64,000 nt of DNA from a virus (Duplodnaviria; Caudoviricetes): the IMG/VR virus record IMGVR_UViG_2515154105_000002, positions 7,105 to 71,104 of that record; one strand, written 5' to 3'. Shown piece by piece: positions 16,720-62,384 of this stretch. Every line of letters begins with the position of its first letter. Within the stretch, counting starts at the first letter, position 1. The notes under the pieces were generated by a model. It was not told the origin of the DNA and did not search any database. It saw only the letters and a program-made list of their open reading frames with translations. The position numbers were made by a program, and so were the translations under genes.

Positions 16720-16727
16720 GATTCGAC

Positions 16728-16792: not shown

Positions 16793-16810
16793 ATTCCTGG
16801 AGGGGTCATC

Positions 16811-37391: not shown

Positions 37392-37478
37392 TGCGGGGGT
37401 CTCTCTCCCGTGTGCTGGGGTGCGGTTGACGTGCGTCGCTCGCCCGGCCAGCACCGGGACGACCCGACAACGCGGGGC

Positions 37479-49200: not shown

Positions 49201-52200
49201 CAGGTCGGGGAGGTGGGGCAGGTCGAGGCCGGGCATGCCCGGGCCGCCGGGTCCGCCGGGGCCACCGTTGTCTCCACCACGGCGGCGACGACGGCGCCGG
49301 CGCTTCCGGTCGTCCTCGTCCTCCTCGTTGTCGGGCTCGTCCGCGTCGGGCTCGTCGGTGTCGGCGCCCGGCGCGTTGCCCTGCTCGCCGTCGTTGTTTC
49401 CGTCCTGGGCGTCGCTGGCGCCTTCGCCTTGGCCGCCGTCCGCGTCCGGGGTCTGCGGGCCTCCGTCGGCCCCTTCGGGGGCTTCGTCGGGTGCCGCACC
49501 GTCGGCGTCCAGGTCGCGGCCGCGGCGTCCGTCGTCGTCTCGCTGCTCGTCGTCCTGGTTCTCCTGCTCCTCGCGGTCGCCTTCGGTGTCGTCGTTCTGG
49601 ACGTCCGGGGCGCCCGGCTCGTTGTCCTGGTCGTTGTCGTCGCCGAGCTGCGGGGCCGCCTCGTTGTCGTCGTCGTTGACGTCCTCGTCGGGGTGGCGGA
49701 GGCGGAGCTCGGCGTCGCGGCTGTAGAACCGCTCCTCGCCGTCCTCGGTGACGATGCGGACGCGGCCGCGGCCGGTCATCTTCGGCGGCTCGGCCACGGT
49801 GTGCGTGCGGCCCTCCGCGTCGATGTACCGGTCGCCCTCGGCGAGTTCGGCGGGGTTGCGCATGTCCACGGGGCGTAGACGGCTGGTGTCACGGCCTTCG
49901 TGGTCGGCGAACATGTCGGGCGTGCCGAACTCGTCGTCGGGCTGGTCCAGGGGGTTGTTCGGGTCGACGACCTGCGGAGCCTGCTCCGGTTCGTCGACGT
50001 CGAACAGGCCGCCCTCGGGCTCGGCCGGGGCGGGCTTCTTCGGCTCCGCCTTCGGCGTACGTCCGGCGCGGCGGTCCTTCTCCGCTTCCAGGACTGCCAT
50101 GCGGGTGCGGTCGGCGCCGGTCAGCTCGCCGTCGGCCATCTCCCGCTCCATCAGGGAGACGATCTCGTCGGCGATCTCCTGGTCGGACATGGCGGTCGGC
50201 GCCTTGACGCCTTCGGGGCGGATCGCGTCGAGCTGCTGGGCGACGTCGTCCTGGTCGAGGGTGAGCGTGCCGCCGTCTTCCTCGCCGTCCGTGGCGCCGT
50301 CGGTTTCGTTCTCGCCCCCGTCGTCCGCCGCCGCTGTGTTCGGGGCGTCGGCCGGCGGCTCGTCGCTGCCGCCGTCCTGGGACCCGTCGGCCTGCGGCGT
50401 CTGCTCCTCGTCCTTGTTCGGCTTCGCCGGGGCGGCCGGGGTCACGTTGTCGTCGACGGGGTTCGGCTGAATCCCTGCGAGGGTGTCGTTCACCTCGTCC
50501 TGGGTGAGGTGGACCGTGTCCTCATCGTCGACGTTCGCCTCCGCGTCGGCGGGGGTGGCGGGCGGCTCCTGCTCCTCGTCCAAGTCCCCGCCGTCGGGGG
50601 CGGCTTCACCGGTCGTGGCGTCGCCGGGGCGGATCTCGTCGAGGGTCTGGGCGACCTCATCGGCGGAGAGCTGCACACGGTCCTGGTCGCCGTTCTCGTC
50701 CCAGTCCTGCTGCGGCTTCTCGGCGCGCTCGGGGGCGGGGAACTTCTCGTCGAACTGCTCCAGGCGCAGCTTGGCGGCGCCGACCGCGGCCTGCAGCGGG
50801 ATGCGCTCCTCGCGACGATCGGCCACGATCTTGGCGCGCTCACTGGGCTTGAGCTTCTTGTCGAGTTCGCTCTCGTCGATCTCGGGCAGCTTGTCGAGGT
50901 CGGCGATCTTGCCGACGACGTCGTCGAGGAGGTTCGCGCGGGCCCGGGCGTGCTGGATCTGCGGCGTGAGGTCTGCGCTCGCCTGGGCGGTCTGCAGCAG
51001 GGCTATCTCTTCGTCGAGGCCGGGCAGGCTGTCGCGGTCGGCTGCCTGCAGATCCGGGGCCTTCTGCAGGGCGTTCTCCAGGCGGGTGATCATGCCCGCG
51101 CCGACGCCCTTCTTCTTCAGGTCCTCCGGGGTGCGCTCGAAGTCGCTGCGGGCCAGGTCACGGAAGCCGACGTGGGCGACGAGCGTGCCGTCGGCCCGGC
51201 GCTCGGTGCGCACTTCGACGTCCAGGCCGCCGAACATGCCGATGACTTTGCTGTCGCCCATGCCGTCGCGGTTGTGCTCCAGCAGTGCGGTGGCGACCTG
51301 CCGGTGCAGCGCCTTGCCGGCGTCCCCGCGGTCCCGGTACGGCAAGCCGCCCATGGTCATGGTGAAGTTGCCGCGCACATCCTGGATACGGGGCATTACC
51401 TCCTCGCGTAGCGCGATGGCTTCGCGGGTGGCCTTGAGGCGGTGCTGCAGCTCGGTGAGGGTTTCGGCGCGGCGGACGCGTTCGGCGGCCTCGTTGTGCT
51501 GGTCGATCTCCAGGTCGCGGAGGCTGCGGCGGGCCTTCATGAGCTGGCTCATGTAGGGGTTGCCGCCGATCTCGGCTTCCATCGTTTCGTAGTCGGGGTA
51601 GTCGACGTCGAGTTCGGTGACGGTGTCGCGGGTGTCGCTGTCGGCCATCTCCGGGCGCTGGATGTCGACCAGGCCCTCGGCCTTGGACGCGACGAATCCC
51701 GCCTTCCAGCCGTCCAGGGAGCCCTTGGTGGCGAAGATGTCGATCTCGACTTCGGCGTTCTGGTTGCCGTAGCGCAGGACGCGGCCGTTGCGCTGCTCCA
51801 TCTGCGCGGCGCCCCAGTCGAGGTCAACGTGCGTGAGGCTGACCATGCGGTTCTGCGCGTTCATACCGGTACCGGCGACGCTGCTGGAACCGATGAGGAC
51901 GGCTATCTCGCCGTCGCGGGCCTTGCGGAACAGCTCCGCGACCTCTTCGGGCTTGCCCTTCTTCTTGACGTCCTGGACGAACGCGATCTTCTCGGCAGGG
52001 ATGCCGCCCGCAACCATCTGCCGCTTGAGTTCGGCGTACGCGTCGAAGCCGCCCTTGTTGTCGCCGCCGGGCACACCCTCGTTCAGGAAGACCATCTGCA
52101 GGGCGCCGGTCACCGGGTGGTCCTCGTCGCTGCCGTAGTACGTCTTGTAGACGCGGTCCTTGTGCTGGTGGTAGCGCTCAACGTGCTTGTCGGCGACGGC

Positions 52201-55200
52201 CTTGAGCTTGTTGCCCGCCGGGGCCTTCGGGTCGATGAGCCGCGGGTCCAGGGCCACAGAGGTGCCCTCGTTGGACACCGTGAGCATGTTGTCGTCGACC
52301 ATCGCCCCCTTGCGGTTGCGGATCGCCTTCGGCTTGCCCTCGTGGATGGCACGGCCGCGGCCGACGAGCCCCTTCAAACGGGCCGTCTGGTCCTTGGTCG
52401 CGCCGACCAGGATCAGGTTCGGGCCGCCGCCCTTCACCTTGGGGCGCGGGATACCGACGTCGTCGGCACGCTTGGTGTCGGCGACCAGGCCCCACATCGT
52501 CTTCATGGCGCGCCGGTTGTGGAACTCGGAGAACCGCTCCACAATCCGCAGGCCGGAGCCGTCGGGCGCGTTCTCCACGCGCAGCGTCTTGCGGCCGAAC
52601 GTGGCGGCCCACAGGTCCGGGGCGCCCGCGTTGTACGAGTCGAGAATCCACGGGGCGGCCAGGGCGAGCATTGTGTACTGCTCGGTGATCGAGTTGGACA
52701 GCGGCGTGCCGGTGGCCAGGGTGACCGTGGCGCGCTCCCCGCGCCGGGTGTGGAGGTCGGTCAGCTTCTGGTGCAGGTCGATGCCGCGGATCGTGGCCGG
52801 GTCGCCGCCGCCCTCCTTGGAGCGGAAACCGACGCCCTTGTAGCGGTGCGCCTCATCGATGACGGCGTAGTCGAAACCGAGGTCGTCCCAGTACGTTTCG
52901 CCCGGGGTGCGCATCGGCGCGGCGTTCTTGCTGATGCGGTTCTGGACCGTCGCGATGCGCTGCTCGATCTTCGCGACGATGAACGGGTGGTCCGGGTTGC
53001 TGGCGTCCTCGTACTGCCGGTCGAGCTGCTCGCGCAGCGCCTCCAGCTCGCGGAACTCGTAATCGTCCTGAGCCTCGGGGCTCATCTTGATCGAGCCGAA
53101 CGCGGGCTCGGTGAAGATGACCAGGTCGGCCTTGTTGGCGCGCAGCCACTCCAAGGTGGCGTCGCGGCGGCCGTCGGCCAGGTCCGCCGAGGTGATCAGG
53201 TGGACGTCGGCGTTCGGGTACAGGAAGCGGGCTTCGTCGTACCACTGCTGTGCGAGGTGGTCGGGGACGACCGCGAACGGCTTCTCGATCTGCCCGGACG
53301 ACTTGAGGGCCTGGGTGCCCATGACGAGCGTGCCCGTCTTGCCCAGACCGACTTCGTGGGCGAGGACGACGGACCGTTCGAACTGCATGCGGGCGGCGCC
53401 GGAGAGCTGCCAGGCGTGCGGGGTGCGGTCGGGCGTGAGGCCGTCCAGGGACGGGCTCATGCCGTCGTACGAACGGACGACGTGCCCGTTCATGATCCCG
53501 TTGTAGGCGTTGGTGAGCGTGGTGAGCCGCTCGCTGTCCGCGGTGGCGTACTTGGCGAACTCCGACCGCATCTGGTCGGCCTTCTGCCGCACCAGGCGGG
53601 ACGTCTCCTCGTCGACGTCCTTCTGCTTGTCGTCGCGGTAAACGGTCAGCGAGCCGTTACCGAGGAGCGCGCGGGCGATCTCGACGGCGGCGCGGCCCTT
53701 GGTGCCCTTCTTCGGGTCGGCGGCGACGCCGTACAGGACGTTGTTGGCCTGCGGGACTTTGCCGGTGTGGAGGATCCACCCGTACCGCTCGTCGTGGGCG
53801 ACATGGAGGGTCTTGTCGCCGAGGTACTCGCGCAGGAAGCCCTGCACCAGCGCGGGCGGTGTCCAGTGCGCGCCCATCTCCGGCGTGAACTCGCCGATGG
53901 TCCGCTCGGGCGGCTGCACTGCTTCGAGCGCGGCCACGTTGACCTGGAAGGCGGGGTCACGCTCGGCGGCCTTGCGGGCGGCTGCGAGCTTGTTGCGCAC
54001 CGCGCCGGACAGGTAGGCGCCGGCCAGCTCGAGACGGCCCGTCGCCGGGTCGGTGAAGACCTCGTTGCCCAGGGCCTGGAGGGCGGCGTCCGGGGTGGTG
54101 TTGAGCAGGCGGGCGATCTCGCGGAGGTCGACGCGGCCGTGCGCGGCGACGACGGCGGACAGCGCCGTCTTGGGGTCGTCGGTCGACTCCAGCGGCTGGC
54201 GGCGGGCGGCCGCGCGCTCGGTGAAGACGCGGGAGAGGACCGGTTCGCCCTTCTCGGCGTCCCACCGCTCCAGCGCGAGGACCGATCCGGCGTCGGGGTC
54301 GAAGCGGAAGTATCCGAACGCGGTCGGGGTGCGCTCCTCCTTGCCCTCCGGTGTCGTGCCGGTCTTCCGCGTGCGGGTCTGGCCGGGCTTGGAAAGGGGG
54401 CCGAACTTGCTGACGTACGCGGTGTGGAGGTCGCCGAGCTGGGCGCGGAGCTTCTCGGCGCGCCCGTCCTCGGCGTTCTTCCGGTCCAGGGTGCGCAGTT
54501 CAGCGGCGACGTCGCGGAGCTGCATGAGGGCACGCAGCTGGTCTGTGCGGCCGTCGGAGGGCTGCACCGGGACGGGGTTGCCGCCGTTGACGTGCTGGTA
54601 GAGCTGGCCGTCGTCGCCCTCGTACAGGCGGCCCGTCCAGTCGTTGGCGTGCTTCTCGCGGGCGGTCTGCAGCACGACGCGCGGCCGGTCGTCGCCGTCG
54701 GGGTGCGGCTCGTAGCCGTTGCCGTCGGCGGTGGCCTTCTCTGCGATCTGCTTGAGGGCGTCACGGAGCTGCTCGGCGGCCTTGCCCGGGTTGCCCTTGA
54801 CGGTCAGGCGCGGCCCGTACGGCGACGACTCCACGGCCAGGTCGCCGAGGACGTGCTCGGGGTGCTCGGTGAAGTAGGTGTTGACGTTCTCGCGGTGGCT
54901 GCCGATCTTCCGCTCGGGGGCGTTGATCCACGACTGGTCACCGGGCTCGTCGCCGTCGGCGCGGCGGCGCAGCACGAGGACGTCGGTGACGACGTTGGTG
55001 CCGGCGTCGTTGAAGACACCGGCGGGCAGGCGTACGGCGCCGACCAGGTCGCCGTACTGGGCGATCTTCTGGCGGGCCTTGGTGCCCTTGGAGTCGAGGG
55101 TGTGCCGGGAGGTGATCAGGAGGGTGATGCCGCCCGGGCGGGTGAGCGCCAACTCCTTGGTGATGAACCCGTTGTGCAGGGACTCGGCCGGGTACCGCTT

Positions 55201-58200
55201 GTCGCCGAAGGGGACGGACGCGAACGGGACGTTACCGATGGCGACATCGAACGTGCCCGGCTCGGCGTCGGTCTCCGCGAAGTTCTCGTTGAGGACGTTG
55301 GCGTCGGGGTAGATGGCCTGCGCGATGCGCGCGGTCGTCGGGTCCAGCTCGATGCCGGTGAGGTGGGCGCCCTCCGGGGACACCCCGAAGAAGGTTCCTG
55401 CGCCGGAGCCTGCCTCCAGGACCTCGCCGCGCTCGAAGCCGAACGCCTTGAGGCCGTCCCACATCGCCTCGGCGATGGGCTGCGGCGTGTAGTGCATCGA
55501 CATGGTGCCGCGCGATGCCTGCCGCCACTCCACGGGTGTCAGCTCGTCGCTGAGCATGGTGCGCAGCTCGCGGTACTCCGCCCAACGGGCGTGGTCCTGC
55601 TCGTACTTGCCGTGCCGGGCGCCGCCCTGCTGGTAGCGCGGCTCCTTTTCCTGCGGCTCGGCCGCGAACATGATCGGGACCGAGCCCCACCCGGTCCAGC
55701 GGGCGAGGGTGCGCTTCTCCTTGTCGTTGGCCGGGCGCTGCTCGCGCTCCAGCCGCTTCATGACGCGGATCGCCTCGACGTTCGCCGCGGCGCGCTGCAC
55801 CGGGCCCTTCGTCGCGGCGTCGGCCGGGTTCGGCCGGAACCGCGGCGCTACATGTCGTACACCGAGTCGCGCAGCGCCTGCAGATCCCGCATCTCCGGCG
55901 TCAGCTCCGGCGCCTGATCGGTCTCCGGCTCCGGCTCCGGCAGCAGCTCCCGCAGCACCTGATCCGTTGCCGTCGCCCTGATCTGCCTGATCTGTCCGGC
56001 GCGGTCCTCGTACTCCGTCGCCGCCGGCACGGTCGTCTCCAGTGCCTCCTCGGCCACCAGAATCGCCGTCTCGATCTCCCTGCCCTTGTTCAGGAAGAAC
56101 TTCTCCGGGTCGGCCATCTCCGCCAGTTCCTTCGGCCGGTACTTCGTCCAGTGGTCCCTGGCCACCTGGCTGTAGACGCTCACCGTCAGCCCCTTCGTCG
56201 TCGTTTGCGAGCGCGGCACGCAGGGCTGCCTGCTGCGCTTCCATGTCTGCGCGGGAGATGACCTTGAGGTCGTCGTCGCCGCCATCCTTGCGTACGGTCT
56301 CCCGCTTCGCGCCGATGGTGTGCAGCGCAGCGTTGATGGAGGCCAGTCGGCTGCGGGCCTTGGAGCGGTCCGAGGAGTCCAGCTCGCGGTCGGTGGACCG
56401 CAGCATCATCTCCCGGGACATCTCTTCGGAGACCCGCTGCAGTTCGGCGAGGAGGCCCTCGGGGATCTCCAGCCGGGCGCCCTTGCCGGACTTCCCGGTC
56501 AGCGGGTTCGTGCCGTCCGACCAGCCGTACTTGTGGCTGGCGAACAGGCTGTAGAGGGTCTGCCGCTCCTTGCTCGCCGTGGTGAAGGAGTCCGCGCGCC
56601 GGTTGCTCTGGTACAGCTCAAAGAACATCTTCGGCACCCACACCGCGCGCGGTGTGCCGTACAGGCGCTGCGGCTCGGTGTCCGGGTCTCCGTCGTACGC
56701 GTCGACGATCGCGGCCAGGGCCTCGGGCAGCGTGGGGTACGCGCCCAGACGCGAACCGCTGCGGCCCTTGCTGGCGTTCCATCCGGCCTTGTAGCCGTAC
56801 TGGTCGGCGCTGTCGACGGCGTGGTAGGTGATCGAGCCGTATCGGGAGCCGTCGACATGAACGGCTTCGGTGTAGGTGCTGGTCGGGCTCGCGTTGGTCT
56901 CTGCGCGGCGGACCTTCGCCTCGCGGCCCTTCATGGCCCGCCGGTTCTGCTCGTCGAAGACCGCCTTCACGCGCTCGTCGAGAGCCTCGCGGGACACACC
57001 GTGGACCGTGCTTCGGTCCTTGTTGAGGGCCAGGAATTCCTTGTTCAGGGCCTCGTCGTCCATGCCAGCCACGTCGGGCCGGTTGCGATACTTGTCGGCC
57101 TTGCGGTTTTCCTTTTCCGCGTACACCGCTCTGTTGCGGGCCTTGAGCGGGCGCTGCTCCTCTGCCGTCAACCGCGGCATGTTGATCGGCAGGCCGACGA
57201 ACTCGCGACTCAGCTCGTCATCCGTGAGGTCTTGGACGGGCTTGCGCTGCTCGATGTTGCGGATCTTGCGGAGCTGCTGTGTCCGCTCGGCGGTCTCCAG
57301 GCGGCTCCCGAGGTCGTTGTAGAGGTCGCGATCTGGGGCGAGGTCGTCTTCACTGCGACCGGGGCCCATCGTCGGGTTGTGGGCGGCCCGGGCGGCGTTC
57401 AGGCGCTTGATGTGCGCGGAGAGGTCCTCGTCGGACAGGTCCTCGGGCGCGTCGGTGCCGTTGAGGGACTCTGTGGTGCGGCGGCGCCGGTCCTCGTACA
57501 GGGCGCGCTCGTCGTCGTTGAGCGCCTCGCCGCGACGGTTGCCGTACGTGCCGCGCTCGCGCTCGGAAGCACGGATCGCGTCGCGGAGCTCGCTGTCGCC
57601 CATCGCCGCGGCCCGCTCCTGTGGGGACTGTGCGGGCTCCGGCGCCTGCGGCTCGCTGGAGTCATTCGTGCCCGGCTTGTTGGCGTCGTCCTGAGTGGCG
57701 CGGCGGCGCTCGATCTCCGCCTCGATCTTCTGCAGCGCGGCCCGCGCCCGCTGCTCGCGCTGCGGCTTCCCCGCCTGCTTGGCGGCCTGCACGTGGAGCT
57801 GCAGGTTCTCGCGGTGCCCCTCCAGGTCCGCCTCGGACATGGCGCGGAGCTTCTTGGTGTCCTCGTCGAGCTGCTGGGCCGGGTTGCGCGTCTCGCCCTG
57901 TGGGGTGGCGTCCTCGTCGACGACGCGGACGTTGCGGCCCTGGCGGGCGAACTCGGCGAGGATGTCCGCGGTCTTGCGGTCGCGGGTCTCCGGCTTCCAT
58001 GTGCCGGTGGTGACGCGCGCGCTCTGCATGCCCGACCACGGCAGCTTGCCGCCGGCGCCGACGGCCTTGTCGTCCTTGGCGTCGTTCTTGATCGTGCCGC
58101 GGATCGCGATGATCCGCTTGCCCTTGTGGGTCGTCCACGCCACGGTCACGTGGTCGGCCTTGGACGGGTCGACGGTGGCCAGGTGGTGGCGGGCGATGAT

Positions 58201-59544
58201 TTGGTCGGCGTTGGTGAGCTGGTTGGCGATGGGGATGTAGACGCCGTCGACTCGGGCGTGACGCTCCTCGTAGCTGCCTTCCACGCGGCCGATGAGCGTG
58301 CCGTCCGGGCCGTACACGGTGACGTTGCCCTGGTTCCAGGCAGACCAGTAGCCGTCTACACCGTCCACGGGTTCGGCGTCCGCGGGCACCCCAGCGGGCC
58401 GACCGTTCGCTTCGGTGTCCGTCTGCGGCTGCTCGGGGGCGCCCGTCTCCCCGCTCTGGGTGAAGCCCGCGCGTGCGTACTCCGGGATGTCAGCGTCGTC
58501 CGCGGGGCGCTGCGGGGTGGGGGCGGCCGGGGCGGTAGCCGCAGGCGCCGGAGTCCGCTGCTGGTCGTTGCCCGGGCGGGAGGCGCGGAAGTCCTGTATG
58601 GCGCGGGTGATGGCCGCTCCGGCGTCCTCGCTCTTGGTGGAGCGCCAACCGGCAAGGACAGTGGCGAGGTTGGGGTCGGAGAAGTCGATCGGCTCGTTGA
58701 GCTCGCCCGGCATGATGTGGCCGTTGCGGACGTTCGCGTGGATGGCGGCGGCCGCGGCTTCGGCTTCCCGGCGGGTGGCGAAGTCGCCGTCGAGGTAGGC
58801 GCCGGTACCGCTCGCGGTCAGGTACCAGAGGCCGTTGGAGTCGTCGCGGGTGGTGACGAGACCGCCGTCGAGGACGACCTGGAGGTCCTCGTCACCGGCC
58901 AGGCGGCGCAGTGCGGTCGCGTTCGCGCCGGGCTGCTGGGCGAGGGCCAGGAAGTGTTGGCGTACCGCCGCGGTGTCCTTGAAGCGGGAGCTGCCGGCGC
59001 CCTGCCGGTTCGGCAGTGCGGTGATGTCGACGTCGTGGTCGCCGTCTTCGGGTTCGTCCTGGTCGTCGCCGTCGTCGGGGCCGTCTCCGTCGTCGTCGCC
59101 GATGGCGTTGCCCTCGTCGTCGGCGTTGTGCGGGTTGTCGGAGGTGTCGGGGTCGCCGCTGTCGTCGCGGGACAGGCCCAGGCCGCGCCGGTCGTCGGCG
59201 TCGCGGCGGGCGTCCTCCTCCTCGACCTTCTGCTGGTTCTTGGTGGGGGCGCTGCCGTCGGGGCGGGCGACCATGGTGACCCAGCGGGCGCTGGTGCTGT
59301 GCCTGCGGCCGGTGTAGGTGCCGTCCGGGGCCTGGTCCTGGACGAGGATGCGGTCGCGGGGCAGTGCGCGAACGACGCGGGCGAGGTTGCCCGCCCAGAG
59401 GCGGGCGATGCCGCCGGTTTCGATGAACCGTCCCTTGCTGTCGCGCGGGTGCAGGGAGGGGTTCCACGGCCTGCGGGAAACCTTGAGTTCGAGTCCGCGA
59501 CTCAGGTCCTGCGACTCAGCCTGTGCAGTGGGGCGATTCACCAT
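43273..59544 (-). CDS. giant (5423 aa) DarB-like polyvalent protein: N6-adenine MTase + SNF2 helicase + repeat domains
   Basis: VLEAGSGAG and GNVPF (MTase); AHEVGLGKT, DEAH, ATGTPLSN, GTGMNAQ, QRNGRVLRYGN (SF2/SNF2); N-terminal WNPSLHPRDSKGRF. Confidence 0.9.
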   Translation of the reverse strand: MVNRPTAQAESQDLSRGLELKVSRRPWNPSLHPRDSKGRFIETGGIARLWAGNLARVVRALPRDRILVQDQAPDGTYTGRRHSTSARWVTMVARPDGSAPTKNQQKVEEEDARRDADDRRGLGLSRDDSGDPDTSDNPHNADDEGNAIGDDDGDGPDDGDDQDEPEDGDHDVDITALPNRQGAGSSRFKDTAAVRQHFLALAQQPGANATALRRLAGDEDLQVVLDGGLVTTRDDSNGLWYLTASGTGAYLDGDFATRREAEAAAAAIHANVRNGHIMPGELNEPIDFSDPNLATVLAGWRSTKSEDAGAAITRAIQDFRASRPGNDQQRTPAPAATAPAAPTPQRPADDADIPEYARAGFTQSGETGAPEQPQTDTEANGRPAGVPADAEPVDGVDGYWSAWNQGNVTVYGPDGTLIGRVEGSYEERHARVDGVYIPIANQLTNADQIIARHHLATVDPSKADHVTVAWTTHKGKRIIAIRGTIKNDAKDDKAVGAGGKLPWSGMQSARVTTGTWKPETRDRKTADILAEFARQGRNVRVVDEDATPQGETRNPAQQLDEDTKKLRAMSEADLEGHRENLQLHVQAAKQAGKPQREQRARAALQKIEAEIERRRATQDDANKPGTNDSSEPQAPEPAQSPQERAAAMGDSELRDAIRASERERGTYGNRRGEALNDDERALYEDRRRRTTESLNGTDAPEDLSDEDLSAHIKRLNAARAAHNPTMGPGRSEDDLAPDRDLYNDLGSRLETAERTQQLRKIRNIEQRKPVQDLTDDELSREFVGLPINMPRLTAEEQRPLKARNRAVYAEKENRKADKYRNRPDVAGMDDEALNKEFLALNKDRSTVHGVSREALDERVKAVFDEQNRRAMKGREAKVRRAETNASPTSTYTEAVHVDGSRYGSITYHAVDSADQYGYKAGWNASKGRSGSRLGAYPTLPEALAAIVDAYDGDPDTEPQRLYGTPRAVWVPKMFFELYQSNRRADSFTTASKERQTLYSLFASHKYGWSDGTNPLTGKSGKGARLEIPEGLLAELQRVSEEMSREMMLRSTDRELDSSDRSKARSRLASINAALHTIGAKRETVRKDGGDDDLKVISRADMEAQQAALRAALANDDEGADGERLQPGGQGPLDEVPAEGTGGDGRPGEVLPEQGQGDRDGDSGGRGGTGDDRAGGDGVRGPRRTDQADQGDGNGSGAAGAAAGAGAGDRSGAGADAGDAGSAGAARLGVRHVAPRFRPNPADAATKGPVQRAAANVEAIRVMKRLEREQRPANDKEKRTLARWTGWGSVPIMFAAEPQEKEPRYQQGGARHGKYEQDHARWAEYRELRTMLSDELTPVEWRQASRGTMSMHYTPQPIAEAMWDGLKAFGFERGEVLEAGSGAGTFFGVSPEGAHLTGIELDPTTARIAQAIYPDANVLNENFAETDAEPGTFDVAIGNVPFASVPFGDKRYPAESLHNGFITKELALTRPGGITLLITSRHTLDSKGTKARQKIAQYGDLVGAVRLPAGVFNDAGTNVVTDVLVLRRRADGDEPGDQSWINAPERKIGSHRENVNTYFTEHPEHVLGDLAVESSPYGPRLTVKGNPGKAAEQLRDALKQIAEKATADGNGYEPHPDGDDRPRVVLQTAREKHANDWTGRLYEGDDGQLYQHVNGGNPVPVQPSDGRTDQLRALMQLRDVAAELRTLDRKNAEDGRAEKLRAQLGDLHTAYVSKFGPLSKPGQTRTRKTGTTPEGKEERTPTAFGYFRFDPDAGSVLALERWDAEKGEPVLSRVFTERAAARRQPLESTDDPKTALSAVVAAHGRVDLREIARLLNTTPDAALQALGNEVFTDPATGRLELAGAYLSGAVRNKLAAARKAAERDPAFQVNVAALEAVQPPERTIGEFTPEMGAHWTPPALVQGFLREYLGDKTLHVAHDERYGWILHTGKVPQANNVLYGVAADPKKGTKGRAAVEIARALLGNGSLTVYRDDKQKDVDEETSRLVRQKADQMRSEFAKYATADSERLTTLTNAYNGIMNGHVVRSYDGMSPSLDGLTPDRTPHAWQLSGAARMQFERSVVLAHEVGLGKTGTLVMGTQALKSSGQIEKPFAVVPDHLAQQWYDEARFLYPNADVHLITSADLADGRRDATLEWLRANKADLVIFTEPAFGSIKMSPEAQDDYEFRELEALREQLDRQYEDASNPDHPFIVAKIEQRIATVQNRISKNAAPMRTPGETYWDDLGFDYAVIDEAHRYKGVGFRSKEGGGDPATIRGIDLHQKLTDLHTRRGERATVTLATGTPLSNSITEQYTMLALAAPWILDSYNAGAPDLWAATFGRKTLRVENAPDGSGLRIVERFSEFHNRRAMKTMWGLVADTKRADDVGIPRPKVKGGGPNLILVGATKDQTARLKGLVGRGRAIHEGKPKAIRNRKGAMVDDNMLTVSNEGTSVALDPRLIDPKAPAGNKLKAVADKHVERYHQHKDRVYKTYYGSDEDHPVTGALQMVFLNEGVPGGDNKGGFDAYAELKRQMVAGGIPAEKIAFVQDVKKKGKPEEVAELFRKARDGEIAVLIGSSSVAGTGMNAQNRMVSLTHVDLDWGAAQMEQRNGRVLRYGNQNAEVEIDIFATKGSLDGWKAGFVASKAEGLVDIQRPEMADSDTRDTVTELDVDYPDYETMEAEIGGNPYMSQLMKARRSLRDLEIDQHNEAAERVRRAETLTELQHRLKATREAIALREEVMPRIQDVRGNFTMTMGGLPYRDRGDAGKALHRQVATALLEHNRDGMGDSKVIGMFGGLDVEVRTERRADGTLVAHVGFRDLARSDFERTPEDLKKKGVGAGMITRLENALQKAPDLQAADRDSLPGLDEEIALLQTAQASADLTPQIQHARARANLLDDVVGKIADLDKLPEIDESELDKKLKPSERAKIVADRREERIPLQAAVGAAKLRLEQFDEKFPAPERAEKPQQDWDENGDQDRVQLSADEVAQTLDEIRPGDATTGEAAPDGGDLDEEQEPPATPADAEANVDDEDTVHLTQDEVNDTLAGIQPNPVDDNVTPAAPAKPNKDEEQTPQADGSQDGGSDEPPADAPNTAAADDGGENETDGATDGEEDGGTLTLDQDDVAQQLDAIRPEGVKAPTAMSDQEIADEIVSLMEREMADGELTGADRTRMAVLEAEKDRRAGRTPKAEPKKPAPAEPEGGLFDVDEPEQAPQVVDPNNPLDQPDDEFGTPDMFADHEGRDTSRLRPVDMRNPAELAEGDRYIDAEGRTHTVAEPPKMTGRGRVRIVTEDGEERFYSRDAELRLRHPDEDVNDDDNEAAPQLGDDNDQDNEPGAPDVQNDDTEGDREEQENQDDEQRDDDGRRGRDLDADGAAPDEAPEGADGGPQTPDADGGQGEGASDAQDGNNDGEQGNAPGADTDEPDADEPDNEEDEDDRKRRRRRRRRGGDNGGPGGPGGPGMPGLDLPHLPDLNNEAPSGDGDGGERGDGRTGGDRDGHRKPIRSMDELRQSWRNGDRLTNDENTPARRAFLAALADNPTLTLSTGGGLITWTDDPGDTPDGMRTWQFAQARNGGRFGNITLTARDSEQARELADLFELTPDANGHAIDWNEPLSADTLDQWRDSDGRPLPKALRSTRDLFQGDSDQDTEPQAPTAPQPEALPDDLTALSDDELAAAWGRGLSPEDQERAVAEMDRRDAVDQRVRDAIPATPAASAAEVEARGKAMDAALGFGDADVTRRPQTEEERMQREFQDFDEARYSAAIDATNGYFFSRNSRSLPPVDERDLFSGGTLSRFGRWKQYASEELIEWYDNNGGRITYNQFKQQRRHQKRIEQHEYAEQQKQQAANAAAPDAAPQADEGERDPNAPRFANLDAVRDHLRAGQLDEQGTSGVQRTDAPNAEELQAIADDKNTRLSKGGRLLIYPNDAARNGAEYNRRFRIAAPGNMLPVVHDNLEGFGTQKQALRAANALVEHVRDAEGQPFPWDAPDAAERARAFRGPNGETLADTITRVLTEHAPNEGQWGYSQDRAREREAWRQQADEWHRQQEADGYTVVADPNDLQPGDEVTHPTVIRPDGFQPGPNPIGTNRATITEGDRYRHAPVGIQALGSQDHDSYRARGMQTAPDGQTRPTREVRPALGVVRRKPRPDELPDDEQRTRPGPSGQPDTAAPQTDTPAPTPEPAADQDEPTPQVAEPETRPEPEPIGGQPAHWAAVGDLQQGDMARIDGTTRRGRAVTRAGYVLTAPETVSVTRRGRTEDMLRTTISESPDGRSGDRGVVYTPLNASAARAEAPDTDAPTTLPTGAQGAVIDGNLPDRIATDTRGRGLFPGTNVTGSGDRQGTVTGVTDTTVSIRWADGDTDNGIAPASLTADDTTDLRPAGWTATGQRIRPGSLVANENGTLGAVDEVDGDRVTISTGTGPQTHDASRLRVVGEVRDETPQTEPVTGISDQTAGQIAKGDVVVLDIDGTPTTVEILDVTRDGDRTTFEYVDTTTGLVGGIDMDSSAVVHKAEGADGKAPELGPEDAPAPADDMTVQEPVQPIDPVDEPTITPDLTPGDRDAIADNGQGPEDDPDAQQAAARINEDLPVTAPQAAALAAQLRANADPATLEGRAALRAATHLDQAAGQPPAVDGFDHPRPSNAAQIGEGDVIAMPDERRGDEIRVFRVIDVEEGPGGVRSLLLEDEDKQWKRRIVHGAMPVWQLPEPAPQAPAAPDADDAPDAPQAPAAPTMPVTQVRPGSLKVGDVIDAPTSRAGYAFNGHRRLTIIAEPRRNGWWMQLTGIDDDGNVHDFGLHNGRDVNVYERNRPTPALPPTGTPDGRDPNPTPQSVADQLVDGHARTVATRIIDNAIQGTDPAGDIHALREQIAQRLTPEALRDARNSARQEALDALDAAEITGADRDAAKRALRQKRDEAQVATVRAALRTINDLEPLPGESDEELAARARDLLQLIPDHIAGNAPQRDGDGDVTRAVAGHADDAVNALLQQLQAAGVDPGDAEAIVRNLMGHMDGTRPATARRIARRVAANNPAAGRQPGLLARIIAALVRLAKRLGLLLKAAAEKIAEKWRDARERLAKLRAFLARVVRRIGDWPESRRMSRLHRALHLPQTDGETLSARIAHWAELLPETGRFGQAQRRVTWWQPTTWAQLAAGRLPGRSDRIRWAPDQAADGGPGLTGLRHLAALRAAGTDIDQDVTRRLADALGHDFGGDPHGTLRHADDYLATAERRLVNLQAAHPAGTIPDPEIEVEIEAARAEAATARREWEDLRTRYAAAIPDAVAATLADVRDLGPQGTAGIVFGPGGSPDAERAIRDVQQAIPRAWLANRAGRRLTAVEGDSGRYEPATRRATVADLGDDGLGTAAHALGQHLAATMPDLDAAQRAWWFTRTHSGRPGARRPDATSLSHLFDQRQTQPDRGDSLARSLQAMFNGDWFEDDDMRAFLLGLMATR
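55848..56183 (-). CDS. nested TnpV-like protein in an alternate frame of the giant gene
   Basis: GTG with GAAGGGG RBS; YSQVARDHWTKYRPKELAEMADPEKFF...QIRATATDQVLRELL. Confidence 0.65.
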   Translation of the reverse strand: MSVYSQVARDHWTKYRPKELAEMADPEKFFLNKGREIETAILVAEEALETTVPAATEYEDRAGQIRQIRATATDQVLRELLPEPEPETDQAPELTPEMRDLQALRDSVYDM

Positions 59545-59694: not shown

Positions 59695-59907
59695 TCACAT
59701 GGTCTCGGTGAGGATGTGGATCAAGAACCATGCGCTGAACCCCGACCAGCCGACGGCGAACACGGCGCGGCCCGCCTTCGAGGTGCGGGTGTGGAACAGG
59801 CGCCGGAAGTTCTCCGACAGGGTGTCTCCCTCACGCCGGTTGACGAGCGCGATCGTCTCGAACGCGCCGAACAAGCAGGACCAGACGATCCAGATGGCAG
59901 CCCACAT
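59695..59907 (-). CDS. small two-TM membrane protein
   Basis: 70 aa, GDTLSE motif; TGATG coupling to portal. Confidence 0.65.
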   Translation of the reverse strand: MWAAIWIVWSCLFGAFETIALVNRREGDTLSENFRRLFHTRTSKAGRAVFAVGWSGFSAWFLIHILTETM

Positions 59908-62384
59908 CAGGGGTTCTCCAGGGCGGTGAGGCCGGTGCGGTAGTGCAGTCGGCAGCGGCAGTTGATGGTGAGGTCGATCGGGGCGAACGGGTCGCCGGGG
60001 TAGCGCAGACTGGCCCCGCCGACGGTGTAGGGCGCACCGGCGGGCAGCGTCTGGCCGTTCAGGGCCTTGTGCGCGGGCCGTACGCGGTCGTCTCCGCGGG
60101 TGATCCAGGTGCGGACGACTGCGGGCCCGGCGTCCTCCGCGGCTGTCTCTGCGGCGCCGTTGATGGTCGCGACGGCGCACGTCTCGGCCATCCGCTCCAC
60201 CAGGCGGGGCCCCTCGGTGCGGTAGAAGAACTCCACGGCGTTCTCAAGGGTGCTGAGGACCGGTGAGCCGTGCTGCACATCGAGTAGGTGCCCGGCCAGG
60301 TCATTCAGCAGCGCGGTCATGGCTTCGCCTGCGTGCCACGAGATGACGTGCGCGGCGAGAACGGCCGTGGCCGGGGGGACGGCGTCTGCGCCGGTGAGGG
60401 ACTGGCGCACCTTGCGGGCGGTCGCCATGGCGGCCTGGTGAAGGATCGGGGCCAGGGTCTGGTGGGTCTCCTCGGCCCAACGGGCGGAGGAGACCACGCG
60501 GTCCGGATCGAGGTCGGCGTCGACGTGCCGGGTGTCGTCGTCGTTCTCGGGCGTCCAGTACCGCGTGTTCTTGCGGATCTTCGGGGCGCGGAGCCGGGCG
60601 AGGATGACTCCCTCCTGCCGCGCGAGGAGCGCGGTCAGAACTGCGGCCACGGCCATGGACAGGCCGTCAAAGTCGTCGTCGGTGACCTCGTAGCCGTCGC
60701 CCTGGTCTGCCGGGTGGGCCTTGCGTTCCACGCGGGCGGCCTCCACGTCTGCGGCCGCGTTGCCCGGGCCGGGCACGCTGGTGGGGGTGGTGCGCGCGGC
60801 GGCGACGTCGTCAGCGGCGTCGCCGGGCAGGGTGAGCGGCATGTTGGCGCGCGCCTGGTCGACGACGGCGGCCGCGCTGTCCCCGCCCGGGCCGACCGCG
60901 GCCTCCGGTGCGGTACCGCGCGCGGCTGCCACGTCGGCGGCCGCGCTGGCGCTCTGGTCCTGGCCGCGGGCTGCGGCGACGTCTGCGGCCGCGGTGCCCG
61001 GCTGCTCGCCTCCGGCCGGGGCGAGGGCGGGCGGCTGCCCTCCAGGGGCGCCGGGCATGGCGCCCGCGGAGGGGTCCTGGGCGACGCCGAGCGCGGCCGC
61101 GTCCTGCTCGTTGGCGGGTACGGGCGCCTTCTGCGGGCTGATCCACAGTGCGCGCGTGTGGGGGACGTCGAACGGGTCCCGTCCGGCGATCTCCCGGTAC
61201 TCGTCCACGGTGATCAGTCCGGCGTTCCACTCCTCGCGGGCCTCTTGGCGGCGCTGGCGGCGCGGGAACTCCAGGGCCTCGACGCCGGAGGTGTTGAACC
61301 GCAGCTTCCATCCGTCGTCGAGGTCCAGGTCGAACGAGGTCGCGATGAGGGACAGGTGCGGCAGCATGGTGTGGGACCAGAAGTTCCACTCTTCGCGGTC
61401 GGCGTTCGCGTACGTCCGCTCGCTCGCGTTGCCGACGATGCTCTCCGGGACGCCGAACGCCGAGAGGATCTCGTCCTTTGCGGTCTTCGACAGCGTCTCG
61501 TAGTTCATGTCGCGCGGCCGCGTGCTGGTGTCGACGTAGTTGAGTCCGCCGGGCCCGCTGCCGACCACGACGGTTTCACCAGCCTGCGCGGCGCCGGGTG
61601 CCAGGCGCTGCTGAATGCGGTCAATCTCGCGCTGGTCGAGTCCGTCGACGTCGATGCCAACGATCCCGGAGGGCCGCGCGTCGTTGTCTATGAAAGCGAT
61701 GTTGTACGTGCGCGCCTTGACGTCCAGGTCGACGGAGAGGCCGGCAGCTTCCAGCGGGGTCACGCCACAGAACGGGTCGGTGGGGTGCGGGTCGCGGATC
61801 CAGATGACGCGGCTCGGGTCGAGCTCGCGGACTCGTCCGTCGTACGTGGTGAACTCGAAGTGAGAGACGTAGTCGCCGTGCGGGTCCGGGATCGGCTGGA
61901 CCCGGTCGGGCGGCAGCAGGTCGAGGCGGGTGATGGTGCCCGCACGGGTGCGGGTGATCTCGACGAACGCACCCTTCTTCGACAGCAGGAGCTGCGCGGC
62001 GAGCCGCTTCTTGAAGACGCTGGCGCGCTCGAGAGGGTTCGACTTCACGTTGAGGACGTGCAGCAGTGGGTGGTCGGTGAGAGTCTCCGCGAACTGGCGG
62101 GAGTCGCCGCCGCGGCCGATCTCGATGTCGAGTGCGGCGGGGTGCTTGGAGATCGCCTCAACGGCCTTGAACGTCCAGACCGACCGCTCGTATCCCTCCT
62201 GAATGACGCGGTCCAGATCCCAGCCTGCGGCCCGGTTCTCGGTGCCCCACACGGTGGTGGTGCCCGCGTAGCTCATGGAGACGTACGAGTTGCCGATCGC
62301 CCCGGCGGACTTCTCCTCCACGGGCGGGGTGACGGACGGCGGCACGAACAGGCGGCGCAGCCCCGGGAAGAGTTGGCGGGGCAT
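59907..62384 (-). CDS. phage portal protein fused to MuF (minor head) domain
   Basis: HPLL..LN, LLPPDRV, EILSAFGVPES, TYAN, GLITVDEYR; C-terminal RTWITRGDDRVRPAH...PGDP...INCRC. Confidence 0.9.
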   Translation of the reverse strand: MPRQLFPGLRRLFVPPSVTPPVEEKSAGAIGNSYVSMSYAGTTTVWGTENRAAGWDLDRVIQEGYERSVWTFKAVEAISKHPAALDIEIGRGGDSRQFAETLTDHPLLHVLNVKSNPLERASVFKKRLAAQLLLSKKGAFVEITRTRAGTITRLDLLPPDRVQPIPDPHGDYVSHFEFTTYDGRVRELDPSRVIWIRDPHPTDPFCGVTPLEAAGLSVDLDVKARTYNIAFIDNDARPSGIVGIDVDGLDQREIDRIQQRLAPGAAQAGETVVVGSGPGGLNYVDTSTRPRDMNYETLSKTAKDEILSAFGVPESIVGNASERTYANADREEWNFWSHTMLPHLSLIATSFDLDLDDGWKLRFNTSGVEALEFPRRQRRQEAREEWNAGLITVDEYREIAGRDPFDVPHTRALWISPQKAPVPANEQDAAALGVAQDPSAGAMPGAPGGQPPALAPAGGEQPGTAAADVAAARGQDQSASAAADVAAARGTAPEAAVGPGGDSAAAVVDQARANMPLTLPGDAADDVAAARTTPTSVPGPGNAAADVEAARVERKAHPADQGDGYEVTDDDFDGLSMAVAAVLTALLARQEGVILARLRAPKIRKNTRYWTPENDDDTRHVDADLDPDRVVSSARWAEETHQTLAPILHQAAMATARKVRQSLTGADAVPPATAVLAAHVISWHAGEAMTALLNDLAGHLLDVQHGSPVLSTLENAVEFFYRTEGPRLVERMAETCAVATINGAAETAAEDAGPAVVRTWITRGDDRVRPAHKALNGQTLPAGAPYTVGGASLRYPGDPFAPIDLTINCRCRLHYRTGLTALENP

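What the first reader, a model, noticed from the sequence alone, without database searches (positions are those of the whole stretch)
55848..56183. A complete TnpV-like gene overprinted inside the giant ORF
Seen: in an alternate frame on the same strand there is a 111-aa ORF with its own RBS and normal globular composition. The host frame over the same bases is a low-complexity G/D/E/R linker, which is what the shifted frame of a real gene looks like. It ends just before the MTase region. Known from recall: TnpV-like small genes often sit directly upstream of MTase-helicase genes on mobile elements. Inference: an ancestral tnpV + MTase-helicase unit was fused in frame to a virion-targeting N-terminus while the small partner was kept as a dual-coded nested gene, possibly a chaperone or regulator.
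Basis: partly seen in the sequence, partly recalled or inferred. Interest (0 to 1): 0.8.

Follow-up and report, generated by a model that had tools for sequence, protein, structure and literature searches.

The report
Small gene hidden inside giant gene
A real gene for a small acidic helical protein lies in a second reading frame inside a giant phage anti-restriction gene, and the same two-frame arrangement recurs, unannotated inside the giant genes, in many phages and plasmids of distant bacteria.

Summary
Window 56183..55848 (minus strand) holds a 111-codon ORF (GTG start, GAAGGGG Shine-Dalgarno 6 nt upstream, TAG stop) in the +1 frame of the 5423-codon ORF 59544..43273. ORF length alone is not beyond chance in this 69% GC DNA. 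Other evidence shows the gene is real. GC3 switches to the small frame only here (0.88-0.96 against about 0.4). The small frame shows purifying selection and the long frame does not. AlphaFold gives pLDDT 95 for the small protein and 53, with no secondary structure, for the long-frame segment. A profile search finds 461 small-protein relatives.

The host gene is a DarB-like methylase-helicase 'polyvalent' protein next to the portal gene. The small protein is a distant TnpV relative: its own Pfam hit fails, but 30 of 110 relatives hit TnpV.

The nesting is conserved. The long frame is stop-free across the small ORF in 40 of 40 actinobacterial loci and in 74 of 74 complete IMG/VR loci, where chance predicts 2.9 of 73. 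It also holds in five proteobacterial phages and one alphaproteobacterial plasmid (per-locus chance up to 0.18).

The function of the small protein is inferred, not shown. I found no report of this nesting.

The parts
55848..56183 (-). Embedded gene (frame Y): 111 codons, GTG start 56183-56181, TAG stop 55850-55848. Product is an acidic (pI 4.5, net charge -11), all-helical TnpV-like protein.
   Evidence: Searches give the ORF. One search gives GC3 0.88-0.96 in this frame. Searches give relatives. Searches give pN/pS 0.44. One search gives AF2 pLDDT 95.4. One search gives pI. One search gives a local HMM E-value of 6e-37; this is the only hit in the window.
56190..56196 (-). Shine-Dalgarno GAAGGGG, 6 nt upstream of the GTG of the embedded gene.
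   Evidence: Read. A Shine-Dalgarno plus a start codon was found in 46 of 49 related loci.
55846..56184 (-). Long-frame (X) reading of the same bases: giant-protein residues 1121-1233, a G/A/D/R-rich segment predicted to be disordered (linker).
   Evidence: Searches give composition. One search gives AF2 pLDDT 53.1, pTM 0.10 and no secondary structure. Searches give pN/pS 1.1-1.3. One search gives GC3 of about 0.4.
43273..59544 (-). Host gene: 5423-codon ORF for a DarB-like 'polyvalent' protein.
   Evidence: The class is described in PMC5512222 (passages read).
56185..59544 (-). N-terminal part of the giant protein (residues 1-1120), no Pfam family. The first ~380 aa are shared only with the other portal-linked copy.
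   Evidence: One search finds no family. One search gives 60% identity over residues 1-319 with L002; the T4SS-linked L004 aligns only with residues 341-611 and 805-1120.
55700..55845 (-). Start of the conserved N-terminal region of the methylase module ('PRFRPNPAD..ANVEAIRV..RPA..EK..LARWTGWG'). It follows the embedded gene's stop at once, and no in-frame start codon lies between the embedded gene's start and its first residues.
   Evidence: GC3 in the long frame returns to 0.96-1.00.
55069..55299 (-). Adenine methylase motif region (Eco57I-like Pfam match, giant residues 1416-1492).
   Evidence: E 0.0031, 18.1 bits, below the 25.3-bit cut-off.
52837..53379 (-). SF2 helicase N-terminal lobe (SNF2-rel_dom / ResIII, residues 2056-2236).
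   Evidence: E 1.2e-5 and 6.4e-5.
51766..51954 (-). Helicase C-terminal lobe (Helicase_C, residues about 2531-2593).
   Evidence: E 2.3e-5.
59907..62384 (-). Upstream neighbour: portal protein with a weak MuF-like C-terminal match. This places the giant gene in a head-morphogenesis module.
   Evidence: Phage_portal E 6e-51; Phage_Mu_F E 2e-4.

Best explanation
The 111-codon ORF is a genuine gene with its own translation start, embedded in the +1 frame of a giant DarB-like methylase-helicase ('polyvalent') protein gene of a Streptomyces prophage or phage-plasmid head module. I conclude that both frames are translated.

Inferred from conservation: ribosomes that start at the giant gene's ATG read these 339 nt as a disordered G/A/D/R linker (residues 1121-1233). 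The linker joins the N-terminal part to the methylase-helicase module. Ribosomes that bind the internal GAAGGGG-N6-GTG make a separate 111-aa acidic helical protein of the wider TnpV family.

The small frame is the older, sequence-constrained one. The long frame mainly has to stay free of stops, and its G/A/D/R make-up follows from its first codon position being the GC-rich third position of the small gene.

The pair is an ancient unit. The same nesting, directly before the methylase N-terminal region, occurs in actinobacterial plasmids and prophages, in an alphaproteobacterial plasmid, and in phages of Klebsiella, Erwinia, Pseudomonas, Vibrio and Agrobacterium. Delivery-specific N-terminal parts were later added upstream of the pair.

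Inferred function (not shown): the small protein works together with the DarB-like enzyme. It may be an acidic partner or chaperone that masks or escorts the DNA-binding enzyme until delivery, or a DNA-mimic-type helper in anti-restriction. Nesting guarantees co-inheritance and co-expression from one mRNA.

My confidence is about 0.85 that this is true dual coding and about 0.35 for the partner function.
For: SMALL FRAME IS CODING
- The GC3 switch is confined to 56250-55850.
- For 45 close pairs, pN/pS is 0.44 in the small frame against 1.28 in the long frame. pN is 0.059, equal to the adjacent methylase N-terminus at 0.058.
- A profile of 6 relatives finds 461 representative proteins at E<=1e-3. 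The best 150 are all 75-331 aa, and none is a giant protein.
- AF2 gives pLDDT 95.4 and pTM 0.74 with five helices.
- A Shine-Dalgarno plus ATG or GTG was found in 46 of 49 loci.
- In LASTA, Pavtok and VvAW1 a stop in the small frame lies only 2-5 codons before the start, and in L044 the open frame begins with an ATG directly after a stop. The frame therefore cannot be entered from far upstream.
- Separately annotated copies exist in L001 and L010.

LONG FRAME IS READ THROUGH
- It is stop-free across the small ORF in 40 of 40 actinobacterial loci, which fall into 9 clusters at 80% nt identity. The third frame is open in 0 of 40.
- The chance of this per locus is 0.31-0.70, mean 0.41, by synonymous resampling. 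Empirically it is 1953 of 5033 windows.
- In lower-GC relatives chance is small: L044 (47% GC) 0.0007, L048 0.029; Atu_ph08 0.012, LASTA 0.003, Pavtok 0.030, Itty13 0.18, VvAW1 0 of 3000.
- T at the small frame's third position before AA/AG/GA codons occurs 0 of 30-39 times in each of these 7 loci, against a T3 usage of 0.05-0.32.
- In IMG/VR, 74 of 74 loci with a complete small ORF have the long frame open across it. The expected number is 2.9 of 73. The third frame is open in 0 of 74, and the GWG methylase motif follows in the long frame in 73.
- Synonymous change in the small frame is halved: pS 0.134 against 0.25-0.29 in the flanks.
- The conserved methylase N-terminus begins right after the small gene's stop, mostly with no in-frame start codon in between.
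- The frame offset is +1 in 10 of 10 annotated giant plasmid CDS (confirmed) and in 4 of 4 phage CDS annotated on the right strand.

TnpV LINK.

ACIDITY: 97 of 110 relatives have pI below 5.

HOST GENE CLASS: and PMC5512222.
Against: - No expression data exist for either frame: no RNA run was listed, and there is no proteomics.
- For the window alone, an open long frame is unremarkable (chance 0.33). Read-through here is therefore inferred from relatives.
- The window's own protein does not match Pfam TnpV, NCBIfam or PHROGs.
- pN/pS of 0.44-0.58 in the small frame is not low. The ratios saturate beyond about 20% divergence.
- The AF2 contrast uses alignments of unequal depth (110 against 16 rows).
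- Loci are related by descent, so the counts overstate independence.
- A few loci depart from the pattern: in PBC5 the N-terminal ORF runs in frame into the small ORF; in L018 the long frame is broken just downstream; L001 and L035 are remnants.
- In L044 and L043 in-frame starts exist inside the small ORF, so a shorter overlap is conceivable there.
- P1 darB, the only experimentally studied member, has no such ORF. P1 Ulx is unrelated.
- Nothing links the small protein physically to the enzyme. Fold searches gave no informative match.
Confidence: 0.82

Rival explanations
1. There are three separate genes (N-terminal gene, small gene, methylase-helicase gene). The uninterrupted 5423-codon frame is a chance or assembly artefact of high-GC DNA, and the long frame is not translated across the small gene.
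For: In this window the long frame would stay open by chance about one time in three. Alternative-frame open runs are common. Ruania L010 is annotated as split genes. L018 is broken just downstream.
Against: There is no stop for the upstream part in any of the 35 giant forms. The long frame is open in lower-GC relatives, where chance is below 0.0003 to 0.03 in six of the seven loci tested and 0.18 in the seventh (Itty13, 68% GC). In IMG/VR it is open in 74 of 74 loci against 2.9 expected. The conserved methylase N-terminus has no start codon of its own in most loci. The same structure in more than 100 independent assemblies rules out sequencing error.
Confidence: 0.05
2. The small frame is reached by programmed +1 ribosomal frameshifting from the long frame, instead of or besides internal initiation. 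This would give a truncated isoform: the N-terminal part fused to a C-terminal TnpV-like domain.
For: In phage PBC5 the N-terminal ORF is in frame with the TnpV-like ORF and ends with it. An internal Shine-Dalgarno shortly before a shift site is known to stimulate +1 shifting in prfB (recalled). In the window the small frame is open for 74 codons upstream of the GTG.
Against: A start codon 4-12 nt after a Shine-Dalgarno is present in 46 of 49 loci. The small frame is closed by a stop 2-5 codons before the start in LASTA, Pavtok and VvAW1, and opens with an ATG directly after a stop in L044. None of the best 150 of 461 relatives is a long fusion protein. I saw no shared slippery motif when reading the junctions; this was not a formal search. 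PBC5 is a single old record and may carry a 1-nt error.
Confidence: 0.07
3. The small frame is an untranslated relic. Its conservation reflects constraint on the long-frame protein or on the nucleic acid, not on a second protein.
For: No expression evidence exists. None of the fetched records that annotate the giant CDS lists the small ORF as a separate feature.
Against: The codon-position signature and pN/pS favour the small frame, not the long one. The long-frame peptide is low-complexity and predicted to be disordered. The small frame folds with pLDDT 95 from covariation in 110 sequences. It matches a Pfam family of free-standing proteins. Start codon and Shine-Dalgarno are conserved. Free-standing copies exist.
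Confidence: 0.03

Closest known systems
Embedded spanin genes Rz/Rz1 of phage lambda and relatives (the 'embedded class' is cited in PMC9144972, passage read; details recalled)
   Same: A complete small gene with its own start lies in the +1 frame, on the same strand, wholly inside a larger phage gene. Both products are made from one mRNA and act in the same process.
   Different: Here the host is a 16-kb polyvalent anti-restriction gene, and the host-frame segment is only a disordered linker. The embedded frame is the older, better-conserved one. The pair is kept across phyla and in plasmids as well as phages. A functional link between the two products is not shown.
comS inside srfA of Bacillus subtilis (recalled, no call)
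   Same: A small gene sits out of frame inside a giant multidomain gene and is expressed from the giant gene's transcript.
   Different: comS is 46 codons and is restricted to a narrow lineage. Here the embedded gene is 111 codons with hundreds of relatives and cross-phylum conservation of the nesting.
Phage P1 DarB with Ulx, and DarB-like 'polyvalent proteins' (PMC5512222, PMC12810830, PMC11437467; passages read)
   Same: The host gene has the adenine-methylase plus SF2-helicase dyad with a conserved N-terminal region. It lies next to head genes (portal/MuF), as described for virion-delivered anti-restriction proteins. P1 DarB also needs a small accessory protein (Ulx).
   Different: P1 has no TnpV-like ORF in bases 1-50000, which include darB. 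Ulx lies downstream as a separate gene and is unrelated (hhalign probability 0.6%). The polyvalent-protein paper contains no occurrence of 'tnpv', 'overlap' or 'frameshift'.
TnpV of Tn4451/Tn4453-type transposons, Pfam PF14198
   Same: A helical protein of about 110 aa encoded on mobile elements. 30 of 110 relatives of the window protein hit PF14198 at E<=0.01. The nested copy in L044 reaches 27.4 bits against the cut-off of 27. ESM Atlas neighbours are auto-named TnpV family.
   Different: The window protein does not hit the model. Classical TnpV is a free-standing gene next to a serine recombinase and was postulated to aid excision by likeness to lambda Xis (PMC3158075, passage read). Here the gene is nested in a methylase-helicase gene, and the predicted fold is an all-helical bundle.

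Membership tests
Pfam TnpV (PF14198) | The protein itself scores at or above the gathering cut-off (27 bits). | tested here: not met
   no TnpV match at E<=10 for either the 111-aa or the 145-aa version; the only hit is FlgN at E 0.16; no PF14198 match in the own genome.
Pfam TnpV (PF14198) | Homology to members, shown through intermediate sequences. | tested here: met
   461 profile relatives; 30 of 110 of them hit PF14198 at E<=0.01 (best 3e-5); nested copy in L044 27.4 bits, L012 20.4. LASTA 18.0, Pavtok 21.9, Itty13 15.7 bits. Atlas neighbours named TnpV (scores 0.90-0.91; a lead only).
Pfam TnpV (PF14198) | Free-standing small gene of a transposon, beside a large serine recombinase, with a role in excision. 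| tested here: not met
   The gene is nested in a DarB-like gene of a head module. No recombinase lies adjacent. The excision role is only postulated in print and cannot be tested here.
Embedded (overprinted) same-strand gene pair | The whole small CDS lies in another frame inside the larger CDS and has its own start and ribosome-binding site. | tested here: met
Embedded (overprinted) same-strand gene pair | Both frames are kept open by selection, beyond what composition gives. | tested here: met
   In relatives: (74 of 74 open against 2.9 of 73 expected). 40 of 40 loci in 9 actinobacterial clusters are open at a mean chance of 0.41. For the window alone this is inconclusive (chance 0.33).
Embedded (overprinted) same-strand gene pair | Both products are detected. 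| not testable with these tools
   No RNA run was listed. No proteomic data are at hand.
DarB-like polyvalent protein (host gene) | Adenine methylase fused to an SF2 (SWI2/SNF2) helicase. | tested here: met
   Eco57I-like methylase E 0.003 (below cut-off), SNF2-rel_dom 1.2e-5, ResIII 6.4e-5, Helicase_C 2.3e-5. Phage relatives are annotated 'DarB-like antirestriction'.
DarB-like polyvalent protein (host gene) | LPD36 domain N-terminal to the methylase. | not testable with these tools
   No model of LPD36 is at hand. A conserved region ('FRP..DLAP.G..ANL.AI..L...RPAT.EEQ..LARWSGWG') occupies that position in all lineages.
DarB-like polyvalent protein (host gene) | Encoded with virion packaging or conjugative transfer genes, and delivered with the DNA. 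| tested here: inconclusive
   Gene context is met: portal+MuF, protease and capsid in the window; portal in L002; T4SS coupling protein in L004 and L008. Delivery itself was not tested.
Programmed +1 frameshift product | The second frame is open back to a shift site and lacks its own start. | tested here: not met
   Own start plus Shine-Dalgarno in 46 of 49 loci. A stop lies 2-5 codons before the start in LASTA, Pavtok and VvAW1, and in L044 the frame opens with an ATG directly after a stop.

The most novel reading that the evidence does not exclude
The TnpV-like protein and the DarB-like methylase-helicase form an ancient obligate two-protein anti-restriction unit, written in two frames of the same DNA. 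The acidic small protein would be a co-delivered partner, such as a DNA-mimic-like shield or escort for the enzyme. Its nesting at the enzyme's N-terminal leader would fix co-inheritance and the ratio of the two products. The classical 'TnpV' genes of Firmicutes transposons would be escaped or captured copies of this nested gene. That would also explain why TnpV-carrying elements in Streptococcus suis sit in ICE snf2 genes (PMC9815147, passage read). If so, a protein family of unknown function since the 1990s would gain a role, and many DarB-like genes of this clade would be annotated one gene short.
Probability: 0.25. Interest if true: 0.9.

Novelty: new member of a known kind. Interest (0 to 1): 0.8.

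Why it matters
Long same-strand overlaps that are conserved and demonstrably under selection in both frames are rare in bacteria and their elements. This one spans 330 nt and is kept from Streptomyces plasmids to phages of Vibrio and Klebsiella.

None of the fetched records that annotate the giant CDS lists it as a separate feature, so genome annotation misses a gene in a widespread class of anti-restriction loci.

It ties the uncharacterised TnpV family to DarB-like enzymes, which gives a testable lead for both. It also shows how giant polyvalent proteins can be assembled across an intervening gene, by reading that gene in a frame where high GC3 leaves few stops.

It is a clean natural test case for methods that detect dual coding: GC3 phase, synonymous constraint and stop-avoidance statistics all agree here.

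Tried and rejected
DIRECT FAMILY ASSIGNMENT OF THE WINDOW PROTEIN
- Pfam, NCBIfam and PHROGs gave nothing significant.
- tblastn of the window protein against phages gave no match.

FOLD AND STRUCTURE SEARCHES
- Foldseek against PDB and BFVD gave no hit at E<=1e-3.
- VIA-align wide gave a best Z of 6.2, with generic helical matches only.
- A profile search against PDB sequences gave 0 hits at E<=10.
- A weak EcoEI_R_C match of the L044 protein (E 0.012) was considered as a hint of methylase binding. It was dropped as unsupported.

OTHER LEADS THAT FAILED
- P1 Ulx as a homologue: rejected (hhalign probability 0.6%).
- A TnpV-like ORF in P1 bases 1-50000: none.
- PF14198 search in 401 genomes of the phylum: only L044 again, plus a false positive in rpoC. 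In 6 relatives and 14 control genomes: nothing.

TOOLS THAT DID NOT RUN OR RETURNED NOTHING USABLE
- The look-up of sequencing runs listed no RNA holder, only small DNA shares.
- The search for related loci with the 110-row alignment failed because it was too diverse. It was replaced by the 6-row alignment A4.
- tblastn of the L048 protein against plasmids found only itself.

IDEAS CONSIDERED AND REJECTED
- A single-base indel in the G-run before the GTG as the origin of the fusion. The same frame relation holds in all lineages.
- Sequencing error, for the same reason.

LIMITS OF THE LITERATURE CHECK
- Searches for 'TnpV', 'PLxRFG', overlapping-gene terms, and DarB plus embedded/nested terms turned up no report of this nesting.
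- I saw only listings and the passages cited.
- Supplementary files were not consulted, so virion proteome tables of DarB-like phages that might hold peptides of either frame were not seen.
Full report
WHAT IS AT THE SITE

The window is 66-75% GC. Its minus strand carries a phage head module:
- a portal protein with a weak MuF-like tail (59907..62384);
- a 5423-codon ORF (43273..59544);
- a DUF6461 protein;
- a prohead protease fused to a LigT-like domain (37633..39576);
- a major capsid protein (36090..37454).

The giant ORF holds an Eco57I-like methylase match (residues 1416-1492, weak), SNF2/ResIII (2056-2236) and Helicase_C (about 2531-2593). This is the methylase-helicase dyad of the DarB-like 'polyvalent proteins' described by Iyer et al. 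2017 (PMC5512222; passages read). The gigantic Streptomyces viridifaciens plasmid protein that paper cites as a prototype appears to be the giant CDS of my locus L011 (same species, similar length).

It has a GTG start, GAAGGGG 6 nt upstream, a TAG stop and 111 codons. The long frame over the same bases reads G 31%, A 16%, D 12%, R 10%.

IS IT MORE THAN CHANCE?

Not by length. The giant ORF has 15 other +1-frame and 18 +2-frame open runs of 140 codons or more. Four other lines of evidence do exceed chance.

1. Codon-position GC. The giant frame has GC3 of 0.84-1.00 on either side, but about 0.36-0.50 between roughly 56250 and 55850. There its first position, which is the third position of the small frame, is 0.88-0.96. 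A scan of all 16.3 kb finds no other marked phase switch. The remaining flagged windows, 10 of them in an acidic stretch near 49600-49135 and 5 scattered, keep GC3 at 0.80-0.90.

2. Substitution pattern. In 45 pairs 90-97% identical, the small frame has pN/pS 0.44 and the long frame 1.28. pN of the small frame (0.059) equals that of the adjacent methylase N-terminus (0.058). Its pS (0.134) is about half that of the flanks (0.25-0.29), the synonymous constraint expected of dual coding.

3. Foldability. With 110 relatives, AlphaFold2 gives the small protein pLDDT 95.4 and five helices. The long-frame segment, with 16 relatives, gives pLDDT 53.1, pTM 0.10 and no secondary structure. The unequal alignment depth is a caveat.

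4. Relatives. There are 20 plasmid records, 5 close proteins and 27 genome loci. A profile search finds 461 representative proteins at E<=1e-3, and the best 150 are all 75-331 aa.

WHAT FAMILY IS IT?

The window protein has no significant Pfam, NCBIfam or PHROG match. The link to TnpV is indirect:
- 30 of 110 profile relatives match Pfam TnpV at E<=0.01.
- A nested copy in a 47% GC genome reaches 27.4 bits against the cut-off of 27.
- Nested copies in the proteobacterial phages LASTA, Pavtok and Itty13 score 15.7-21.9 bits.
- ESM Atlas neighbours are auto-named TnpV family (a lead only).

I therefore call it a distant TnpV-family relative, not a Pfam member. The family is acidic: median pI is 4.5, and 97 of 110 members have pI below 5. 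No solved or predicted viral structure resembles the model.

THE NESTING IS CONSERVED

Actinobacterial loci:
- Of 12 plasmid loci fetched, 10 place the match inside an annotated giant CDS of about 3,400-12,400 aa. In all 10 the offset from the CDS start is 1 mod 3 (script check).
- Two are separately annotated small genes: L001 beside an IS5, and L010 in Ruania.
- Across 40 actinobacterial loci including the window, the long frame is stop-free over the whole small ORF in 40 of 40. The third frame is open in 0 of 40.
- In high-GC DNA this is expected 31-70% of the time per locus (mean 0.41; empirically 1953 of 5033).
- The loci form 9 clusters at 80% nucleotide identity. Nine independent draws at 0.41 would all succeed about 3 times in 10,000. 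That figure is my arithmetic, and relatedness makes it approximate.

Lower-GC relatives give the decisive evidence:
- The chance of an open long frame is 0.0007 in L044 (47% GC) and 0.029 in a 57% GC alphaproteobacterial plasmid, where the host CDS is annotated 'PLxRFG domain-containing protein' (L048).
- In phages it is 0.012 (Atu_ph08), 0.003 (LASTA), 0.030 (Pavtok), 0.18 (Itty13) and 0 of 3000 (VvAW1).
- In each of these 7 loci, none of the 30-39 positions where a T would create a stop carries a T.
- tblastn finds the small ORF in 12 distinct phages, always under the 'DarB-like antirestriction', 'PLxRFG' or methylase CDS (under wrong-strand 'hypothetical protein' calls in Itty13) and never as a separate feature.
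- The offset is +1 in Atu_ph08, LASTA, Pavtok and VvAW1.
- An IMG/VR scan returned 76 loci. In 74 the small ORF is complete, and in 74 of 74 the long frame is open across it. The expected number is 2.9 of 73. The third frame is open in 0 of 74, and a GWG methylase motif follows in the long frame in 73. GC ranges from 47% to 69%.
- A few of these loci duplicate the named phages, and loci are related by descent.

HOW THE TWO FRAMES ARE READ

Small frame:
- A Shine-Dalgarno with ATG (28 loci) or GTG (18 loci) was found in 46 of 49 loci by a simple scan.
- In several phages a stop in the small frame lies 2-5 codons before the start, and in L044 the frame opens with an ATG directly after a stop.
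- None of the top 150 relatives is a fusion.
- Internal initiation is therefore the simplest reading. Frameshifting from upstream is unlikely.

Long frame:
- Directly after the small gene's stop, the long frame encodes the conserved start of the methylase module ('(V)A.RFRP..(Q)EDLAP.G...ANLAAI..L....RPAT.EEQ..LARWSGWG').
- In most loci there is no ATG, GTG or TTG in that frame between the small gene's start and this motif.
- In the window the 16 codons after the stop are 16 of 16 G/C at the long frame's third position (read).
- Ribosomes must therefore arrive in the long frame from upstream.

AGE AND ORIGIN

Short forms without the big N-terminal part show the same overlap. The long frame starts 37-165 nt upstream of the small gene's start in Actinophytocola L039, Ruania L010, L043 and L044.

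The small frame has the normal codon signature, the wider distribution and the folded product. The long-frame segment looks like a later extension of the methylase ORF over an existing gene. That order is an inference.

The window's N-terminal 1120 residues share 60% identity over the first ~320 aa only with the other portal-linked copy (L002). The T4SS-linked L004 aligns only with residues 341-611 and 805-1120. This fits a delivery-specific N-terminal extension but does not prove it.

EXCEPTIONS, TOLD IN FULL
- PBC5: the N-terminal ORF runs in frame into the small ORF, and the long frame reopens only shortly upstream of the small ORF. This may be a sequencing error or a real split.
- L018: the long frame is broken by an indel just after the small gene's stop.
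- L001 and L035: these are remnants in which the long frame is only 223 and 306 codons.
- L008: a 72-nt deletion removes the last helix of the small protein but keeps the long frame.
- L047: a free-standing paralogue 600 nt upstream of a nested copy.
- L069: it lacks the methylase motif.
- P1 darB: it has no such ORF, and P1 Ulx is unrelated.

FUNCTION

Nothing was shown. The obligate position before the methylase-helicase module, the acidity and the anti-restriction context suggest a partner, escort or DNA-mimic-like helper of the DarB-like enzyme. I give this about one chance in three. TnpV itself has only a postulated Xis-like role (PMC3158075, passage).

NOVELTY

Embedded same-strand genes are a known kind: Rz/Rz1, and comS in srfA (recalled). 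I found no report of this instance:
- the polyvalent-protein paper has 0 occurrences of 'tnpv', 'overlap' or 'frameshift';
- searches gave nothing relevant (listings and cited passages only);
- none of the fetched records that annotate the giant CDS lists the small ORF as a separate feature.

I did not consult supplementary files, so virion proteome tables remain unchecked.

VERDICT

It is a new, widely conserved member of the embedded-gene class. Interest is 0.8.

Noticed in passing
window 37633..39576 (-): The prohead serine protease (Peptidase_S78, residues 85-156) is fused to a 2'-5' RNA ligase / LigT-like phosphoesterase domain (residues 212-320). This is an unusual pairing inside a head module.
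   Followed up: no
L053 (Pseudomonas phage Itty13, NC_070969.1 3102-11323): The record annotates three 'hypothetical proteins' on the strand opposite to an ORF of more than 2740 codons. That ORF carries the DarB-like methylase N-terminal motif and the nested TnpV-like gene. The annotated genes are probably wrong-strand calls in 68% GC DNA.
   Followed up: partly
L049 (Sinorhizobium phage PBC5, NC_003324.1): The N-terminal ORF (gp22) runs in frame into the TnpV-like ORF and ends with it. About 1.6 kb up to the annotated start of the next DarB-like CDS is left unannotated, although the long frame is open there. Relative to Atu_ph08 the frames differ by one base just after 'SSAAEVE'. This is either a sequencing error in an old record or a natural split.
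   Followed up: partly
L008 (Streptomyces sp. NBC_01232 plasmid), around 6213-6249: A 72-nt deletion relative to L004 removes the last predicted helix of the small protein and keeps the giant frame intact. This is a natural C-terminal truncation of the embedded gene.
   Followed up: no
L041 / L047 (genome G295, contig C7 149436-150354): Two TnpV-like genes lie in tandem. A free-standing copy sits about 600 nt upstream of a copy nested in the methylase ORF.
   Followed up: no
49 related loci: The embedded gene ends in TAG in 43 of 49 loci (TAA 4, TGA 2). From recall, TGA is the commonest stop in high-GC actinomycetes. The TAG gives the conserved Val (GTA) of the long frame. Many of the loci are close kin, so this may be inheritance.
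   Followed up: no
literature: PMC9815147 (passages): In Streptococcus suis, integrative mobilizable elements that carry a TnpV gene are inserted specifically in the snf2 gene of ICEs. If that snf2 gene is DarB-like, the insertion site may relate to a nested tnpV.
   Followed up: no
window 15602..18244 (-): An 880-codon ORF begins with a DUF4096 (IS4/IS5 transposase N-terminal) match. This may be an insertion sequence within the element, or an over-extended ORF.
   Followed up: no
L132 (genome G301): The only other PF14198 match in 401 genomes of the phylum (E 9.4e-4) lies in a coiled-coil stretch of an RNA polymerase beta'-like ORF (recognised by eye from its translation). It is a false positive and shows how weakly the Pfam model performs in this phylum.
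   Followed up: yes
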